DNA from: a virus
DNA length: 64,000 bases
Strand: one strand, 5' to 3'
Virus record (IMG/VR): IMGVR_UViG_3300037882_003336
Location: 14,667 to 78,666 of that record
The translations under genes were made by a program, and so were the position numbers. Positions 17,865 through 60,821 of the stretch are shown here, one piece after another. Each line of letters opens with the position of its first letter. The first letter of the stretch is position 1. The notes under the pieces are model-generated. The model did no database searches. It was not told the DNA's origin and worked only from the letters and a program-made list of their open reading frames with translations.

Positions 17865-17893
17865 ATTATAACACAGCAATTGACTTTTGTCAA
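17865..17893 (-). promoter_or_regulatory. Sigma70-type promoter P1 (leaderless)
   Basis: TTGACA-17 nt-TATAAT with extended TG; ATG 5 nt downstream. Confidence 0.9.
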
Positions 17894-25396: not shown

Positions 25397-25425
25397 ACTA
25401 TAACACGAGACTTGAAGCTTGTCAA
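25397..25425 (-). promoter_or_regulatory. Sigma70-type promoter P2 (leaderless)
   Basis: TTGACA-17-TATAGT, extended TG, ATG 5 nt downstream. Confidence 0.88.
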
Positions 25426-35165: not shown

Positions 35166-35194
35166 ATTATACCACACAAGAAAACTCTTGTCAA
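35166..35194 (-). promoter_or_regulatory. Sigma70-type promoter P3 (leaderless)
   Basis: TTGACA-17-TATAAT, extended TG, ATG 5 nt downstream. Confidence 0.9.
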
Positions 35195-35454
35195 GTAGTA
35201 TGGTCCGCGTACCGCCTAAGCAACACAAAAATGGGGTCGTTGCAGGGGGCATCATCCAGACTTCTCAGGTCGTCTAACTGGATGTGACGGCCAAGGCGCT
35301 TTTCAGTGCAGAGCGTGCAGATGATAAGCCTGCGGTTCCCGCCATTGATAGCACTCCACAGGTCCGGCCTGAGAATCGGCCCGAGCCCACAATGGCCACA
35401 GTCCTCGCACTTGTAGTAGCGATCCAGATTCTTCGGTCTCGGTTTTTCGTTCAT
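35191..35454 (-). CDS. Small Zn-binding phage protein
   Basis: CEDC...LW...CTLCTEKRLGR; start MNEKPRPK at 35454. Confidence 0.6.
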   Translation of the reverse strand: MNEKPRPKNLDRYYKCEDCGHCGLGPILRPDLWSAINGGNRRLIICTLCTEKRLGRHIQLDDLRSLDDAPCNDPIFVLLRRYADHTT

Positions 35455-35468
35455 CACTTTGATACGGG

Positions 35469-35613
35469 TCGGGGGTGGCCGACCCCTCCCAGGCTCGACC
35501 ACCCCCGATTCATGAGTCCAACGGCAAGCCCTCCCAGTCCGACCGTTGGAAATTTGAGCGAAGATGGCCAGCCCTCCCAGTCCGACCACCCTCGCGCCAC
35601 CAATTGCGGTGAC
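35469..35613 (-). ncRNA. Candidate structured RNA: three tandem hairpins with CUGGGAGGG loops plus a small fourth hairpin
   Basis: Stems at 35469-35508, 35517-35550 and 35558-35595 differ in sequence yet pair; plus-strand A-C mismatches are G-U pairs on the minus strand. Confidence 0.7.
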
Positions 35614-35661
35614 ATCAAACAAGAAAAACGTGCTTAGCGTGTATTTGGCGACAGCGTAAGC

Positions 35662-36246
35662 TCACATAGCCGCTGCCTCTGGCATTGACGGGAACCCCGG
35701 ATACGCCTTGTCGCGGAACGTCTCTTTCACCATGTCCAACCGACCTTTGAACTCCCGGTCAATGCGGGCGTTTTCGCGGTCAAACGCATCCAGATACAAC
35801 AGTTCCTCTTCCGCCCAAGCAGTGCGAACCGACTTTTCATCCTGTTCCGGGTGTCGTAGGATAAGCGCACGCCCAATCCCAGTGAACTTCCAATCAACCA
35901 TCACACCCCGCCTACGAAGCTTATCCACCACTTGGTTGGTACCGCTCTTCCCAAGCAGGCTCGCCAACACCGGAACACCGTGCTTGAAAATAAACGGATC
36001 ACACTTACCGAACTCTTCGCCCAGTGTGCATTCGCCACGAGCGTCGTAGGAATCACCTACTGACTTTGGCACCACCGTGAGAACCGGTGGTGCCACTATC
36101 ACGGGTCCAAGTTCGTCATCCTCCAATACCAGTTCCTCAGTATCGTCAACCAATTCTTCCTCCACCTCTTCTGGTTCAATCTCACGAAGCCCAGCGTACT
36201 GATCTTCGTGAGCCTCGTCTGCAAATGGGTCGTAGTCGATCCGCAT
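35662..36246 (-). CDS. Hypothetical protein with acidic N-terminus
   Basis: Start MRIDYDPF at 36246. Confidence 0.6.
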   Translation of the reverse strand: MRIDYDPFADEAHEDQYAGLREIEPEEVEEELVDDTEELVLEDDELGPVIVAPPVLTVVPKSVGDSYDARGECTLGEEFGKCDPFIFKHGVPVLASLLGKSGTNQVVDKLRRRGVMVDWKFTGIGRALILRHPEQDEKSVRTAWAEEELLYLDAFDRENARIDREFKGRLDMVKETFRDKAYPGFPSMPEAAAM

Positions 36247-36247
36247 A

Positions 36248-36475
36248 TCAGGTCTGGATGGTGGTAATAAAGTCGAACGCATCTTCCATGGTCTCAAACG
36301 GCTCTTCCCTCACTGCAGCCTGTTCGTGTTCTGCTCCCCGGTACACCATCCAACCTCTGGGTTCCAGGACAGCGGCGGCAATGAAGTTGCTGGCTGCTGA
36401 CAAGCCGTAGTAGGTGAGGTAGCGTGCGGGCACGCGGCGAAAGTACATAGCGTCTTCTGGAATGTTCTCAACCAT
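36248..36475 (-). CDS. Small hypothetical protein
   Basis: MVENIPED..., between purZ and the next gene. Confidence 0.5.
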   Translation of the reverse strand: MVENIPEDAMYFRRVPARYLTYYGLSAASNFIAAAVLEPRGWMVYRGAEHEQAAVREEPFETMEDAFDFITTIQT

Positions 36476-36479
36476 TTCG

Positions 36480-37748
36480 TTATAGGGTGGAAGCGTGGTC
36501 TGTCTCGGGAGACCAGTTGAAGAGCACGTGCTCTTCACCACAGTAAACGTCCGAATCGGCCATGAACTTAGTAAGGCTTTTTCCGTGCTCGTGTGCTGCT
36601 TTTGGGTCTCCGTTCAGGTAGTTGAGGAACGTTAGGAACATAAATACACCACCCGGTGCGTTGTTCAGTCTCACGAAATCCCGCCATGCGATTTCGCTCA
36701 TGGTCGCGATGCGGCGTGGGAGCTTGGTGAGAGTTGTGATTTCGCTCGGCACGTCCCAGCCAGCGTAAGACCGGATTTCGTCCCATGTGAGTTCGGTCTG
36801 GTCAGTTTCCCAACCCCCGCTAGACCCTTCGACCACTTGGATTTCGTCGCCTCTACCGTCGGCGCGGAGTGCGTCGATTTCGACTTGGGTCAGAAACGCC
36901 CCGTTGTGGAGGTATCGGTTGCTGGCAATGCGAATTGGGAAGGTCCGGTTGACGCCAACGACCGAATTGAGCAACGCGGGGGCCACACAGGTCTCGCTGA
37001 GGAATGAAGCCACCGAAGTGGACCGGCTCGTGCAGTACGGGTAGTGCGGGCCGTAATTGGAAAGCTGAAAGCCCTGTGACCCGTCGAGCAGCGCCCCGTT
37101 GTAACAATTGGCGATGGTTTCGTTGATGTCACCGCGTGGCTGCGCGTACTCCCACACCGCATTCACATCACGAGCCATGGTGGCCCTCCGAAGCGCACGT
37201 TTGGCGCGGGCGGCTCCGGAGCCGGACCCGGTGGTGCCAGTGCGAGACAATGCCAAGTCCCGGTCAGCGATGGGCTTTCCGTTGAAGTCGTGGGTTCCGT
37301 TCTCCAATCCTTCGTCCTCTGGCGTGACGATCGCGGCCAGAGGGTGAATGAAAAGGTGGGTGCGGGGAACTTCCAGCATTTCCACTTCTTTCTTCAGGTC
37401 TTCCGGCTTGAACGCCGCGCCCGGTCCAATGAAGATGTAGGGGCGATAGTCCTGATAGCCCCAATAAAACGCACCGGCTGGAAGCACCTTCACCACCCCG
37501 CTTCGGCTCACCGAAGAATCGGTAACGGTGTGGCTAGAATTCCGCGAGTTGGCGGTCAATAGCACCCCCGGTCGCCCAATCTTGGCGAGCAAGGCGCTTG
37601 CACACCCCTTGGCCTCAGAACCGGTCTGAGCACCCATGACCACTGAAACCCGGTTCGGCTTGAAGATGTTCTTGACGAGCCCATCTCGCTCAAAGAGCCT
37701 CTGGTTGTCATTGAAGTGTCTGGACCAAGCTTTGGGATCGTACGTCAT
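36480..37748 (-). CDS. purZ: PurA homolog with PurZ (2-amino-deoxyadenylosuccinate synthetase) signatures
   Basis: GAQTGSEAKG (Ser at the PurA catalytic Asp13 position), NSSHT, GTTGSG, DGSQG..YPYCTSR, RTFPIR, TTLTKLPRR, FLTFLNY in place of TKLD. Confidence 0.8.
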   Translation of the reverse strand: MTYDPKAWSRHFNDNQRLFERDGLVKNIFKPNRVSVVMGAQTGSEAKGCASALLAKIGRPGVLLTANSRNSSHTVTDSSVSRSGVVKVLPAGAFYWGYQDYRPYIFIGPGAAFKPEDLKKEVEMLEVPRTHLFIHPLAAIVTPEDEGLENGTHDFNGKPIADRDLALSRTGTTGSGSGAARAKRALRRATMARDVNAVWEYAQPRGDINETIANCYNGALLDGSQGFQLSNYGPHYPYCTSRSTSVASFLSETCVAPALLNSVVGVNRTFPIRIASNRYLHNGAFLTQVEIDALRADGRGDEIQVVEGSSGGWETDQTELTWDEIRSYAGWDVPSEITTLTKLPRRIATMSEIAWRDFVRLNNAPGGVFMFLTFLNYLNGDPKAAHEHGKSLTKFMADSDVYCGEEHVLFNWSPETDHASTL

Positions 37749-38170: not shown

Positions 38171-38880
38171 AATGGAACTTGTACGCGTTTTTCGACGATC
38201 GTGGCAGTTGGGTTGATGGCACGGCATTTGTCGAGTGCTGACTCCATAGTGTTGTACTTCTGTGTGTTAAGTTCCCTAACCGAAGAATTCACATAGTAGT
38301 GTTGACCCTCAGACCACTTGGAAATCGTAAACACCTCCTGTTTGTAAAGCCCAACCATATCACCATTCCACTCCATGGAGTCTGTCACCTTTTCAATGGG
38401 GTCGGTGCGCATCCCACCTTGGAAGTTCACAAAGACGTTGTCCTCCTTGTCGAGCAGCGCCTTGGCAGTCGCAGCCCACATAGTGCCAAACTCAGCCCAC
38501 GACGGATGCTTTCCTTCTTTTACTGCCATATCCATGTGAATATTGCGTTCCTGCAGCACTTTGAACTGCTTAGTGAACCAGTCTCGGTACAGATGTAGGC
38601 GCGGTAAGTCGAGCTTGGTGAGGTGAATAAACCACGCTTTGTAGTCATTCGGTTCCAGAGAGGTGTCAAGCAACGCCAGAGTTATGGGCGAAGGCCGATC
38701 GGGTGGCTCCACGCCAACGATTTCGGCCATTGCTCGGACTTTCCGGGCTTGCTGTTGAGCCTTTTTCACAATCCTCGGGCTCATACCGGATTCATCGACG
38801 ATCTTGGCGTCGCGTTCGGCCATGTCGGCTAGAGTTGAGGCAAACTCGCGGAGTTCCTCGATGGTGAATTCAGGGCTCAT
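38167..38880 (-). CDS. Hypothetical protein
   Basis: 237 aa, coupled to the TOPRIM gene. Confidence 0.6.
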   Translation of the reverse strand: MSPEFTIEELREFASTLADMAERDAKIVDESGMSPRIVKKAQQQARKVRAMAEIVGVEPPDRPSPITLALLDTSLEPNDYKAWFIHLTKLDLPRLHLYRDWFTKQFKVLQERNIHMDMAVKEGKHPSWAEFGTMWAATAKALLDKEDNVFVNFQGGMRTDPIEKVTDSMEWNGDMVGLYKQEVFTISKWSEGQHYYVNSSVRELNTQKYNTMESALDKCRAINPTATIVEKRVQVPL

Positions 38881-39761
38881 TGTGGTTTCAGGGTTTCAGC
38901 TAGTGCGTCGAGTTTGATGCGGAGTTCCTCTTCCTTGTAACAAGAGTCGTTCCATTTATCTTCATCGCGGAGGCTAAGAACTCCGTTCCGGCAGATGGTG
39001 GCGAGCAGTTCCACATCCAGTGCGTCAAGCTCCCACGACTCGTTGCCGTACTTGGCGACGTACTCGGGGGCGCGACTGTCGCTCATCTTGGTGGGGTTGG
39101 GGATGAGATTGTGCCGTTCGATCTGGCGCATGGTGAGCGCTGCCCGGTGCACCGTGATGTCGGACTGGGAGAACAAAGCGAGGCGGTCCGCCACGTCCGT
39201 GCTCATGTGAACTCCGCTCGGATCGAAGTCCCCGAAGTAGATCACGTGGCATTTCTTCCTGCCCGCCACGGTGCGCTCCTGCAGTTCCTTGCCAAGGTCG
39301 TACATCGCGGTGGCACTGCTGTACCCCTTGTTGGAGTGGAATGGCACTTCCAGCTTTCGGCACACTGGAGCCAATACGCCCTCAAGCGCCTGCTTCTCGC
39401 ATGCCACCACCACGTAATTTGTCTGGTCCTGCCATTTGTCGATCTTGAAGCCCTCGACGGTGCTGCGCATGATGTGGTATGGGGAATCCCAAGTCTGGAC
39501 GATATGAGGTACCCGTCCCCGATCCACGATCGCGTCCCAGTCGATCAGCCCCGCCATCCGTCCGTCGGCGACCGCGCCCTTCAGCCGGTCGTATGACTCC
39601 TGCGAGTTCGGGTAGACGTTGTCCTTGACGCCTTGGTAGAAAAGCTGGCGCAAGGAGAGTGAATACCCGCGAGCCAAATAATCCGAACAGACCCCGTCAG
39701 CCCACGTGATCAGGCGCATGGTCTCGCTGCGGAACGCTTTGTCGATGAACTTTTCGTACAT
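38877..39761 (-). CDS. Topoisomerase VI-A/Spo11-like winged-helix + TOPRIM protein
   Basis: SLRQLFYQ, VACEK, KGYSS, YFGDFDPSG, WELDAL motifs. Confidence 0.8.
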   Translation of the reverse strand: MYEKFIDKAFRSETMRLITWADGVCSDYLARGYSLSLRQLFYQGVKDNVYPNSQESYDRLKGAVADGRMAGLIDWDAIVDRGRVPHIVQTWDSPYHIMRSTVEGFKIDKWQDQTNYVVVACEKQALEGVLAPVCRKLEVPFHSNKGYSSATAMYDLGKELQERTVAGRKKCHVIYFGDFDPSGVHMSTDVADRLALFSQSDITVHRAALTMRQIERHNLIPNPTKMSDSRAPEYVAKYGNESWELDALDVELLATICRNGVLSLRDEDKWNDSCYKEEELRIKLDALAETLKPQ

Positions 39762-39766
39762 CCGAC

Positions 39767-39795
39767 ACTATAACACAGCCCGTGACTTTTGTCAA
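39767..39795 (-). promoter_or_regulatory. Sigma70-type promoter P4 (leaderless)
   Basis: TTGACA-17-TATAGT, extended TG, ATG 5 nt downstream. Confidence 0.88.
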
Positions 39796-51523: not shown

Positions 51524-51552
51524 ATTATAACACAGCTAAAGACGCTTGTCAA
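51524..51552 (-). promoter_or_regulatory. Sigma70-type promoter P5 (leaderless)
   Basis: TTGACA-17-TATAAT, extended TG, ATG 6 nt downstream. Confidence 0.9.
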
Positions 51553-58505: not shown

Positions 58506-58534
58506 ATTATACCACATCTTAGGACTTTTGTCAA
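58506..58534 (-). promoter_or_regulatory. Sigma70-type promoter P6 (leaderless)
   Basis: TTGACA-17-TATAAT, extended TG, ATG 6 nt downstream. Confidence 0.9.
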
Positions 58535-60638: not shown

Positions 60639-60821
60639 TCACTTCACCTCGTTCTTGATTTCGTCCTCGAACTCCTGTTTGGCCTTCTTGAATTCACCCA
60701 TACTCTTACCCATACCACGGGCGAGTTCAGGAAGCTTCTTGGCTCCAAACATCAGAAGGAGCAGCAAGACGACGATGGCTATTTCCGGGCCACCAAGGGC
60801 AAAAGCGAGTAGTGGTATCAT
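60639..60821 (-). CDS. tatA: Twin-arginine translocase subunit TatA/E
   Basis: GGPEIAIVVLLLLLMFGAKKLPELARGMGKSMGEFKKA, canonical TatA TM, FG hinge and amphipathic helix. Confidence 0.95.
   Translation of the reverse strand: MIPLLAFALGGPEIAIVVLLLLLMFGAKKLPELARGMGKSMGEFKKAKQEFEDEIKNEVK

What the first reader, a model, noticed from the sequence alone, without database searches (positions are those of the whole stretch)
35469..35613. Triple-hairpin non-coding element with near-invariant CUGGGAGGG loops and compensating stems
Seen on the minus strand: GCGAGGGUGGUCGG-ACUGGGAGGG-CUGGCCAUCUUCGC, UCCAACGGUCGG-ACUGGGAGGG-CUUGCCGUUGGA and UCGGGGGUGGUCGA-GCCUGGGAGGGG-UCGGCCACCCCCGA at about 44-nt spacing, preceded by a small hairpin GUCACC-GCAAUU-GGUGGC. 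Outer stems differ between copies but all pair. Nearly all non-Watson-Crick positions are G-U on the minus strand (A-C on plus), which points to selection on a minus-strand RNA. Established: multi-hairpin sRNAs with GGA loops (CsrB/RsmZ) titrate CsrA/RsmA. Inference: a phage protein-sponge or decoy RNA (CsrA-like regulator, SD-like ribosome decoy or antitoxin mimic). The plus-strand reading (CCCUCCC loops, like cuckoo RNAs) fits less well.
Basis: partly seen in the sequence, partly recalled or inferred. Interest (0 to 1): 0.8.

Follow-up and report, generated by a model that had tools for sequence, protein, structure and literature searches.

The report
Orphan triple-hairpin RNA in phage operon
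An uncultured phage with no close relatives carries three copies of one folded RNA hairpin between two genes; the structure is real and almost certainly non-coding, but what binds it and what it does remain open.

Summary
On the minus strand, 35469-35613 carries a small hairpin (h0) and three 34-40 nt hairpins (H1-H3). All three hairpins share a 22-nt apical module, while their lower stems differ and still pair: 8 of 14 pairs change on both sides. The minus-strand RNA folds at -100 kcal/mol (z -4.5) against -68.5 (z -1.3) for the plus strand. The element is unique in the 78.7-kb contig, matches no Rfam family, and has no counterpart in the viral, metagenome or genome collections scanned.

It fills a 204-nt gap inside a minus-strand operon. 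The operon appears to start at a consensus leaderless promoter (39795) and ends before the next one (35194). The element lies just upstream of an 87-aa zinc-ribbon gene. It is very unlikely to be that gene's N-terminus.

Only GGGA(G) is really unpaired, capping a C-U/G-G mini-helix above a bulged purine, much like a protein-operator hairpin. My best reading (about 0.35) is a three-site docking array for an RNA-binding factor that acts in cis. No expression data and no related genomes covering the element could be obtained.

The parts
35596..35613 (-). h0: 6-bp hairpin (GUCACC / GGUGGC, loop GCAAUU) that abuts H1 with no spacer
   Evidence: -7.7 kcal/mol on minus, -5.2 on plus; present in the MFE fold
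35558..35595 (-). H1: 14-bp stem with four G.U pairs, bulged A, C-U/G-G mini-helix, GGGA(G) cap
   Evidence: model R1 51.6 bits
35517..35550 (-). H2: 12-bp stem whose lower half differs completely from H1 and H3 but pairs; same 22-nt apical module as H1 (95% identical); one C.U mismatch
   Evidence: R1 46.7 bits
35469..35508 (-). H3: 14-bp stem, G.G 1x1 mismatch, CCU/GGG mini-helix, GGGA tetraloop; -36 kcal/mol; ends 14 nt before the start codon of the 87-aa gene
   Evidence: (I1); R1 46.2 bits
35551..35557 (-). A/U-rich single-stranded linker between H1 and H2 (UCAAAUU)
35509..35516 (-). linker between H2 and H3 (CUCAUGAA); contains an AUG (35513-35511) that opens a 19-codon frame across H3, ending at a UGA that overlaps the 87-aa gene's AUG
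35616..35661 (-). weak hairpin (-8 kcal/mol, 35632-35661) followed by a U-rich tract (35616-31), directly after the stop of the upstream ORF; terminator-like but below the scan's criteria
   Evidence: not flagged
35191..35454 (-). downstream 87-aa gene: four-Cys zinc-ribbon protein of an unnamed phage family (phrog_6053); no Shine-Dalgarno sequence
35662..36297 (-). upstream ORF (211 aa; called as 194 aa in the protein collection); no homologue found anywhere
35166..35194 (-). perfect TTGACA-17-TGnTATAAT promoter for the next gene, which is leaderless; marks the downstream end of the transcription unit that holds the element
39767..39795 (-). nearest upstream consensus leaderless promoter; presumed start of the unit that reads through PurZ and the element

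Best explanation
The element is a non-coding part of a minus-strand polycistronic phage mRNA. It lies in the last intercistronic gap of the unit that seems to start at the leaderless promoter at 39795.

It shows the same 22-nt apical module three times, about 44 nt apart. The module is an upper helix GGUCGR/YYGRCC with an invariant U.G, a bulged or mismatched purine, a C(C)U/G(G)G mini-helix and a GGGA(G) cap. The lower stems serve only as variable pedestals.

I read this as a three-site docking array for a sequence- and shape-specific RNA-binding factor, from the phage or the host. The factor would most likely be a protein that binds as an oligomer or cooperatively. Bound or unbound, the array sits at the 5' edge of the ribosome-landing zone of the 87-aa zinc-ribbon gene: H3 ends at -15. 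That gene has no Shine-Dalgarno sequence and, unlike most genes here, no upstream cistron close enough to couple with. The likely effect is therefore control in cis of that cistron's translation or stability, and possibly of the 3' end of the upstream PurZ-containing message.

Shown: the structure, the strand, the copy conservation pattern, uniqueness in the contig, and the non-coding nature. Inferred: that a factor binds, what it is, and what binding does.
For: - Structure and strand.
- Paralogue covariation confined to the lower stems, while the apical 22 nt stay 95% identical between H1 and H2, and a U.G is kept in all three copies. Neutral divergence after duplication would not spare only the apex.
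- Exposed GGGA(G) over a 2-3 bp mini-helix and a bulged purine in all copies.
- Operon context and absence of the element's own promoter.
- The gene downstream lacks a Shine-Dalgarno sequence. The phage otherwise relies on leaderless starts and on ATGA/TGATG stop-start overlaps.
- Non-coding: the 43-nt offset between H1 and H2 puts the same nucleotides in different frames. Codon scores are 0.07, -0.19 and -0.24 against 0.40 +/- 0.17 for coding windows. Most zinc-ribbon family members begin 10-15 residues before the first Cys. A profile comparison with the long-form subfamily aligns only residues 70-138 of the 143-aa frame.
Against: - There is no expression data and no relative that covers the element, so all covariation comes from three paralogues in one genome.
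- H3's apex lies about 30 nt upstream of the AUG, so simple occlusion of the start codon by a bound protein is not obvious.
- No candidate binder was identified. CsrA, RegB and RNase III domains are absent from the held contig, which is estimated at 39% of the genome. The zinc-ribbon protein gave no informative fold match.
- The apical conservation could partly reflect gene conversion.
- Homologues of the zinc-ribbon gene in other phages have no such leader, so the link to that gene is positional only.
Confidence: 0.35

Rival explanations
1. Trans-acting decoy or sponge RNA. The array is cut out of the operon transcript at its A/U-rich linkers and titrates a host factor that binds GGA or GGGA loops, such as a CsrA/RsmA-type regulator, or another loop-specific protein or RNA.
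For: - Three identical exposed GGA-containing apices on stable pedestals.
- The C-G-closed UGGGAG hexaloop version resembles the ANGGAN loop of CsrA sites (consensus recalled from memory, 8 of 10 positions).
- A/U-rich linkers between G+C-rich hairpins.
- The element is unlinked to the zinc-ribbon gene in other phages.
Against: - No own promoter or U-tailed terminator.
- No match to CsrB, RsmY, RsmZ or any other family at E<=10.
- No CsrA in the held contig.
- Genes without Shine-Dalgarno sequences and a Bacteroidota-leaning TatA suggest a host lineage that usually lacks CsrA (the last step is my own knowledge).
- Only three sites.
- No complementary target motif in the phage's own transcripts above chance.
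Confidence: 0.2
2. Passive structural element. The very stable hairpins act as a barrier to exonucleases or as an RNase processing site. They separate the fates of the upstream PurZ-containing message and the last small cistron, as REP hairpins or phage RNase III sites do, with no specific binder.
For: - It is the most structured 150 nt of its neighbourhood: -0.54 kcal/mol per nt, z -4.1 against the flanks.
- Intercistronic position at the end of a transcription unit.
- Each hairpin is a nearly continuous 16-18 bp helix.
Against: A mere barrier needs no conserved apex, no invariant U.G and no bulged purine. There is only one such site in 78.7 kb, and other unit ends have no comparable hairpins. 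The held contig has no RNase III, although host enzymes could serve.
Confidence: 0.2
3. Array that docks ribosomes through Shine-Dalgarno-like motifs. The GGGAGGG motifs pair with the 3' tail of 16S rRNA. They would serve either as standby sites for the downstream gene, or as a decoy or sensor for ribosomes whose anti-Shine-Dalgarno tail is free, in a host that normally ignores these sequences.
For: - Three of the five GGGAGGG on the sense strand of the contig lie in this element.
- The phage otherwise lacks these sequences at gene starts.
- Published work shows that Bacteroidia ribosomes hide the anti-Shine-Dalgarno tail unless they lack bS21 (PMC7797042, PMC9976891).
- The TatA lead points to Bacteroidota.
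Against: - Only GGGA(G) is unpaired; the rest of the GGAGG core sits in the mini-helix.
- The nearest motif lies about 30 nt from the AUG, too far for a normal Shine-Dalgarno sequence.
- The start region is already unstructured, so no standby site is needed.
- The host assignment rests on one weak lead.
- No bS21 gene in the held contig.
Confidence: 0.08
4. The region is translated. Either it forms a 56-residue N-terminal extension of the zinc-ribbon protein (frame 35191..35622), or it is a 53- or 19-codon leader ORF (frame 35454..35618) whose UGA overlaps the AUG of the 87-aa gene and couples translation through the hairpins.
For: - Both frames are open.
- The UGAUG overlap looks like genuine coupling junctions elsewhere in this phage.
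- An AUG at 35615 follows an unstructured U-rich tract.
- Some family members do carry Gly/Ala-rich N-terminal extensions.
- The in-frame codon score (0.07) is close to that of the 87-aa gene itself (0.09).
Against: - The repeats are conserved as nucleotides across different frames (43-nt offset).
- All three frames score below the 5th percentile of coding windows.
- The extension does not align with the long-form subfamily.
- Most family members are short.
- Candidate start codons are buried in or abut hairpins of -8 to -36 kcal/mol.
- Compensatory stem changes are unexplained by coding.
Confidence: 0.07
5. DNA-level signal. The inverted repeats extrude as cruciforms or single-strand hairpins and serve as an origin, a packaging or recombination site, or hairpin promoters.
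For: Three inverted repeats in a row in one of the few non-coding gaps.
Against: - The arms vary while the centres are conserved, the opposite of a palindromic protein site.
- All seven non-Watson-Crick pairs that still pair are G.U on the transcribed strand and would be A.C on the other. The plus-strand hairpins are much weaker.
- No change of gene orientation or skew extremum here.
Confidence: 0.05

Closest known systems
Csr/Rsm sponge RNAs (CsrB, CsrC, RsmX/Y/Z)
   Same: Several hairpins in a row, each showing a GGA-containing apical loop. The stems are free to vary and A/U-rich linkers separate them.
   Different: - No match to any of these Rfam families, even at E<=10.
- The loop reads UGGGAG rather than the usual CAGGAUG type.
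- Pedestals of 12-14 bp instead of short stems.
- No own promoter or terminator.
- Only three sites.
- No CsrA found in the phage contig, and the host is unknown.
flg-Rhizobiales RNA (Rfam RF01736)
   Same: The two hairpins of the family consensus end in uGGGAg and ccuGGGAggg apices, the same caps as H2 and H3. The alignment covers H2 and H3.
   Different: The score is 23.6 bits against a gathering score of 55. The 3' half of the model falls on the coding sequence with a large gap. The family is confined to 5' regions of flagellar genes in Rhizobiales, and its function is unknown (PMC2864571).
Protein-operator hairpins of phages (MS2/PP7 coat-protein operators, lambda boxB)
   Same: The architecture: a lower stem, an unpaired purine on the 5' side, a 2-3 bp upper helix and a 4-5 nt loop. 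GGGA fits the GNRA pattern. This comparison is from my own knowledge.
   Different: Those operators occur singly. The coat-protein type overlaps a start codon, and boxB precedes terminators. Here there are three copies, none overlaps the AUG, and no coat, N-like or other binder was identified.
Cuckoo / CcsR RNAs of Alphaproteobacteria
   Same: Tandem hairpins with near-identical loops and variable stems. The plus strand of this element would show CCCUCCC loops.
   Different: The plus-strand fold is weak (z -1.34, A.C mismatches), all neighbouring genes are on the minus strand, and there is no Rfam match.
REP/BIME intercistronic hairpins and phage RNase III sites
   Same: Stable hairpins between cistrons of one operon that can set different fates for the upstream and downstream message.
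   Different: REP elements are dispersed in many copies and conserved as whole palindromes. This element has one locus and conserves the apex, not the arms.
Type III antitoxin RNA arrays (ToxI, CptI)
   Same: Tandem units of about 36-45 nt placed just upstream of a small gene. Phage mimics of such arrays are known.
   Different: The units are not direct repeats by Tandem Repeats Finder. The downstream protein is a zinc ribbon with no defence-system match. No terminator lies between the array and the gene.

Membership tests
Csr/Rsm sponge RNAs | Multiple GGA motifs exposed in hairpin loops | tested here: met
   Three apices with GGGA unpaired at p>0.9
Csr/Rsm sponge RNAs | Match to a family covariance model (CsrB, CsrC, RsmX/Y/Z and others) | tested here: not met
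   No match at gathering score, and none among the eight matches at E<=10
Csr/Rsm sponge RNAs | Independent small-RNA gene with its own promoter and intrinsic terminator | tested here: not met
   No promoter-like site between 35614 and 35661, and no U tail after H1-H3. The only terminator-like feature lies upstream of the array
Csr/Rsm sponge RNAs | A CsrA/RsmA protein present in the system | tested here: inconclusive
   PF02599 is absent from the 78.7-kb contig, but the contig is about 39% of the genome and the host is unknown
flg-Rhizobiales RNA (RF01736) | Score at or above the Rfam gathering threshold over the whole model | tested here: not met
   23.6 bits against 55. Only the two hairpins align
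Cuckoo / CcsR RNAs | Stable hairpins with CCUCCUCCC-type loops on the transcribed strand | tested here: not met
   Plus-strand fold z -1.34; H1 is only -6.1 kcal/mol on the plus strand. The genes around it are on the minus strand
Intrinsic terminators | G+C-rich hairpin followed directly by a U run | tested here: not met
   H1-H3 are followed by UCAAAUU, CUCAUGAA and CCCGUAUC; none was flagged
REP/BIME elements | Many dispersed copies in the genome | tested here: not met
   Model R1 with filters off finds only the three copies in 78.7 kb; the next hit on another site scores 16 bits
Type III antitoxin arrays | Near-identical direct repeats followed by a ToxN/AbiQ-type toxin gene | tested here: not met
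   No tandem repeat by TRF. The downstream protein has no PADLOC or Pfam match
RNA thermometers (ROSE type) | The last hairpin sequesters the ribosome-binding site or start codon | tested here: not met
   The AUG lies 14 nt outside H3 in an unstructured A-rich stretch
Coding sequence (N-terminus of the zinc-ribbon protein) | Codon usage, family length and homology of the extension | tested here: not met
   Codon score 0.07 against 0.40 +/- 0.17. Most of the aligned relatives start 10-15 residues before the first Cys. The profile aligns residues 70-138 only

The most novel reading that the evidence does not exclude
The array is a phage-made decoy. Once released from the operon transcript, its three exposed GGGA/GGAGG apices would capture a host global regulator of translation. 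The target could be a CsrA-like protein. In a host whose ribosomes normally ignore Shine-Dalgarno sequences, it could instead be the free anti-Shine-Dalgarno tails of ribosomes that lack bS21. Either way, host protein synthesis would be re-tuned during infection.
Probability: 0.15. Interest if true: 0.8.

Novelty: new variant of a known kind. Interest (0 to 1): 0.45.

Why it matters
Structured RNAs of phages are poorly catalogued. This one sits in a phage with several unusual traits: PurZ (probable 2-aminoadenine DNA), consensus promoters that give leaderless mRNAs, and genes without Shine-Dalgarno sequences. An array of three identical operator-like hairpins in such a genome is a clean, small object for finding a new RNA-protein pair. 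It could also show how a cistron that can neither couple to an upstream gene nor use a Shine-Dalgarno sequence gets translated. As it stands it is a single-genome orphan without expression data, so its value lies in being a well-defined lead rather than a result.

Tried and rejected
- Rfam at gathering thresholds over the whole window: no match. At E<=10 over the gap: only weak matches, flg-Rhizobiales at 23.6 bits and chance hairpin matches.
- Close relatives: blastn and tblastn against 50,697 phage records gave no DNA match and no match for the 211-aa ORF. The zinc-ribbon gene gave only about 34% matches in T5-like phages and CBB.
- The search for related loci in IMG/VR with the 87-aa protein, PurZ and the 211-aa protein: none. 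The 5.8-billion-protein search returned only the window's own proteins.
After folding and scoring with model R1, all hits were coding repeats, other repeat families with GGGAGG inside stems, or chance. None exceeded 28 bits, against 46-52 for the real copies.
- Sequencing runs: no RNA holder listed. One aquatic DNA run holds a 90-95% relative as very short contigs, and none of them covers the element.
- Homologues of the zinc-ribbon gene in 22 IMG/VR loci, T5-like phages and CBB: no R1 match and no hairpin array upstream.
- AlphaFold model of the zinc-ribbon protein (pLDDT 88.6): no Foldseek match in the PDB at E<=0.001.
- No Pfam or PADLOC match for the neighbouring proteins.
- CsrA, RegB, RNase III, bS21 and sigma-70 domains were not found in the held contig.
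One-mismatch matches of the loop motif are no more frequent than chance, and none lies at a gene start.
- Other non-coding gaps and the regions upstream of the nine promoters hold nothing comparable.

Full report
**What is there**

On the minus strand, 35469-35613 reads as a 6-bp hairpin h0 (35596-35613) abutting three larger hairpins: H1 (35558-35595), H2 (35517-35550) and H3 (35469-35508). The nonamer CTGGGAGGG occurs exactly three times in the 64-kb window, all in this element. One-mismatch matches elsewhere are no more frequent than in shuffled sequence.

As minus-strand RNA, the whole 211-nt gap folds at -100.2 kcal/mol (z -4.46; none of 200 shuffles as good). The plus strand gives -68.5 (z -1.34). 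The asymmetry is largest for H1 (-23.8 against -6.1), because four of its 14 pairs are G.U. A sliding 150-nt window makes this the most structured stretch of its 3-kb neighbourhood (-0.54 kcal/mol per nt, z -4.1).

**Conservation pattern**

Aligned on a common 14-bp stem, 92.9% of cells are paired and 8 of 14 pairs change on both sides among the three copies. No column shuffle of 500 reaches this, and sliding the partners by 1-3 columns abolishes it.

The changes are confined to the lower eight pairs. The upper six pairs and the loop form a 22-nt module that is 95% identical between H1 and H2, and all three copies keep a U.G wobble. These are paralogues in one genome, so this is weaker evidence than covariation between species. 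Even so, divergence that rewrites the lower stem of H2 completely while sparing the apex is hard to explain without selection on the apex.

**The apex**

The partition function shows that only GGGA is fully unpaired, and the next G is unpaired about half the time. C-U pairs with G-G, and the preceding A is unpaired; in H3 a G faces a G at that position. The tetraloop and pentaloop versions differ by 0.2 kcal/mol.

One description fits all three copies: pedestal, unpaired purine, a 2-3 bp mini-helix, and a GGGA cap of the GNRA type. From my own knowledge, it is the general architecture of protein-operator hairpins.

**Coding or not**

Two frames are open across the element. One is in frame with the 87-aa gene (143 aa from a TTG at 35622). 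The other is a 54-aa frame whose UGA overlaps that gene's AUG. Four observations argue against coding:

- H1 and H2 are 43 nt apart, so the same 22 nucleotides are read in different frames.
- Codon log-odds for the three frames are 0.07, -0.19 and -0.24. Coding windows of the same length score 0.40 +/- 0.17, with a 5th percentile of 0.14. The 87-aa gene itself scores only 0.09, so this test is soft.
- The 87-aa protein belongs to an unnamed four-Cys zinc-ribbon family with 82 representatives. Most members begin 10-15 residues before the first Cys, as the 87-aa version does.
- Some members do have Gly/Ala-rich N-terminal extensions. A profile of that subfamily, however, aligns only with residues 70-138 of the 143-aa frame.

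I put translation of this region at about 0.07.

**Context**

The contig is a 78.7-kb IMG/VR record, estimated at 39% complete. Nine sites match TTGACA-17-TGnTATA(A/G)T. All are on the minus strand, and each is followed by an ATG 5-7 nt later, so these messages should be leaderless.

The element lies between the promoters at 39795 and 35194. It comes after a topoisomerase-like gene, PurZ and an orphan 211-aa ORF, and before the last gene of the unit. No promoter-like site precedes it and no U tail follows any of its hairpins. A weak hairpin (-8 kcal/mol) with a U-rich tract sits just upstream.

Only 2 of 32 gene starts have a Shine-Dalgarno-like tetramer at -17 to -4, against 10.5% at random positions. 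Many genes overlap their predecessor as ATGA, TAATG or TGATG. The 87-aa gene is therefore unusual: it follows a 204-nt structured gap, has no Shine-Dalgarno sequence, and starts 14 nt after a -36 kcal/mol hairpin in an otherwise open, A-rich stretch.

**Search for relatives and analogues**

No Rfam family reaches its threshold. At E<=10 the best match is flg-Rhizobiales (23.6 bits against a gathering score of 55). Its two hairpins end in the same uGGGAg and ccuGGGAggg caps, but the rest of the model does not fit. That family's function is unknown (PMC2864571).

A covariance model of the three copies finds nothing else in the contig. The phage has no close relative in the phage records, in IMG/VR, or in the 5.8-billion-protein collection. 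Pattern scans of IMG/VR, metagenome contigs and 185,579 species genomes returned only coding repeats, other repeat families and chance matches, none above 28 bits.

One aquatic DNA run holds a 90-95% relative, but only as contigs of 150-380 nt, and none of them covers the element. No RNA run is listed. Comparative covariation and expression therefore remain untested; they are not negative results.

**The neighbouring zinc-ribbon gene**

Its AlphaFold model is confident (pLDDT 88.6) but has no significant PDB neighbour. Its homologues lie inside tRNA gene clusters in T5-like phages and in phage CBB. Six of 22 IMG/VR loci have tRNA genes within 1.5 kb upstream. None has an R1 match or a hairpin array. 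The element is thus not a conserved companion of this gene.

**Interpretation**

The anatomy points to specific recognition of the apex by some factor, three times over. I favour a docking array that acts in cis at this junction (0.35), for three reasons. The RNA has no transcription signals of its own. It sits directly at the 5' edge of the landing zone of a cistron that cannot couple to an upstream gene. And a passive barrier would not need a conserved apex.

The phage's biology without Shine-Dalgarno sequences also argues against it, as does a weak Bacteroidota lead from TatA, because both point to hosts that usually lack CsrA. That last step rests on my own knowledge.

A passive barrier or processing site (0.20), a ribosome-docking role for the Shine-Dalgarno-like motifs (0.08), translation of the region (0.07) and a DNA-level role (0.05) remain possible.

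**Verdict**

This is a real, non-coding, minus-strand triple-hairpin RNA with an operator-like apex. It is unique to this orphan phage as far as the collections reach. It is a new variant of a known kind (multi-hairpin RNAs with conserved loops) and belongs to no described family. Its function is unproven. Interest is moderate.

Noticed in passing
window 17865-17893, 25397-25425, 35166-35194, 39767-39795, 51524-51552, 58506-58534; L068 (three more upstream of the window): Nine near-perfect TTGACA-17-TGnTATA(A/G)T promoters, all on the minus strand. Each is followed by an ATG 5-7 nt after the -10 box, so these messages should be leaderless.
   Followed up: partly
whole window, gene starts on the minus strand: Gene starts lack Shine-Dalgarno motifs (2 of 32 against 10.5% background). 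Many genes overlap the previous stop as ATGA, TAATG or TGATG, which suggests initiation by coupling.
   Followed up: partly
window 36480-37748 (-): Homologue of adenylosuccinate synthetase that matches the phage family annotated as 2-aminooxy adenylosuccinate synthetase (phrog_1211, E 2.6e-35). It is a PurZ candidate, two genes upstream of the element.
   Followed up: no
window 35191-35454 (-); L298 1387-1704; L299 1390-1701; L304, L306, L308-L310, L312: The zinc-ribbon family of the downstream gene lies inside or next to tRNA gene clusters in T5-like phages, in phage CBB and in six of 22 IMG/VR loci. In three lineages it lies within about 20-100 nt of a tRNA gene, upstream or downstream. The hairpin array occupies the equivalent position in this phage.
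   Followed up: partly
window 35454-35513 (-): An AUG in the H2-H3 linker opens a 19-codon frame across H3. Its UGA overlaps the AUG of the 87-aa gene as UGAUG, the same junction type as at real gene boundaries such as 22323. This may be chance or a coupling device.
   Followed up: partly
window 35470-35481 and 35583-35594: The arms of H1 and H3 are similar enough to cross-pair (12 nt, 83% complementary). This would allow an alternative long-range fold that encloses H2 (I3).
   Followed up: no
window 60639-60821 (-): A phage-encoded TatA-like protein of 60 aa. Its nearest clusters in the protein atlas are mostly from Bacteroidota (score 0.90), a weak lead to the host.
   Followed up: partly
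window 35658-35908 and around 35773: An aquatic metagenome run holds a 90-95% relative as short contigs. One contig ends at 35658. Another departs from the window's sequence below 35773, so the region next to the element may differ between strains.
   Followed up: no
L232 6613-6782 (Candidatus Poriferisodalis genome): A coding repeat with a 21-nt period contains an 18-mer nearly identical to the H1 apex (GGCCGGACTGGGAGGGCTGGCC). It is periodic and lacks the pedestal, so I judge it chance.
   Followed up: partly
window 38877-39761 (-): The topoisomerase-like protein (phrog_6247) has about 40% identical homologues in siphoviruses of Pseudomonas, Xanthomonas, Brevundimonas, Flavobacterium and Pseudanabaena. 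It gives no clue to the host.
   Followed up: no
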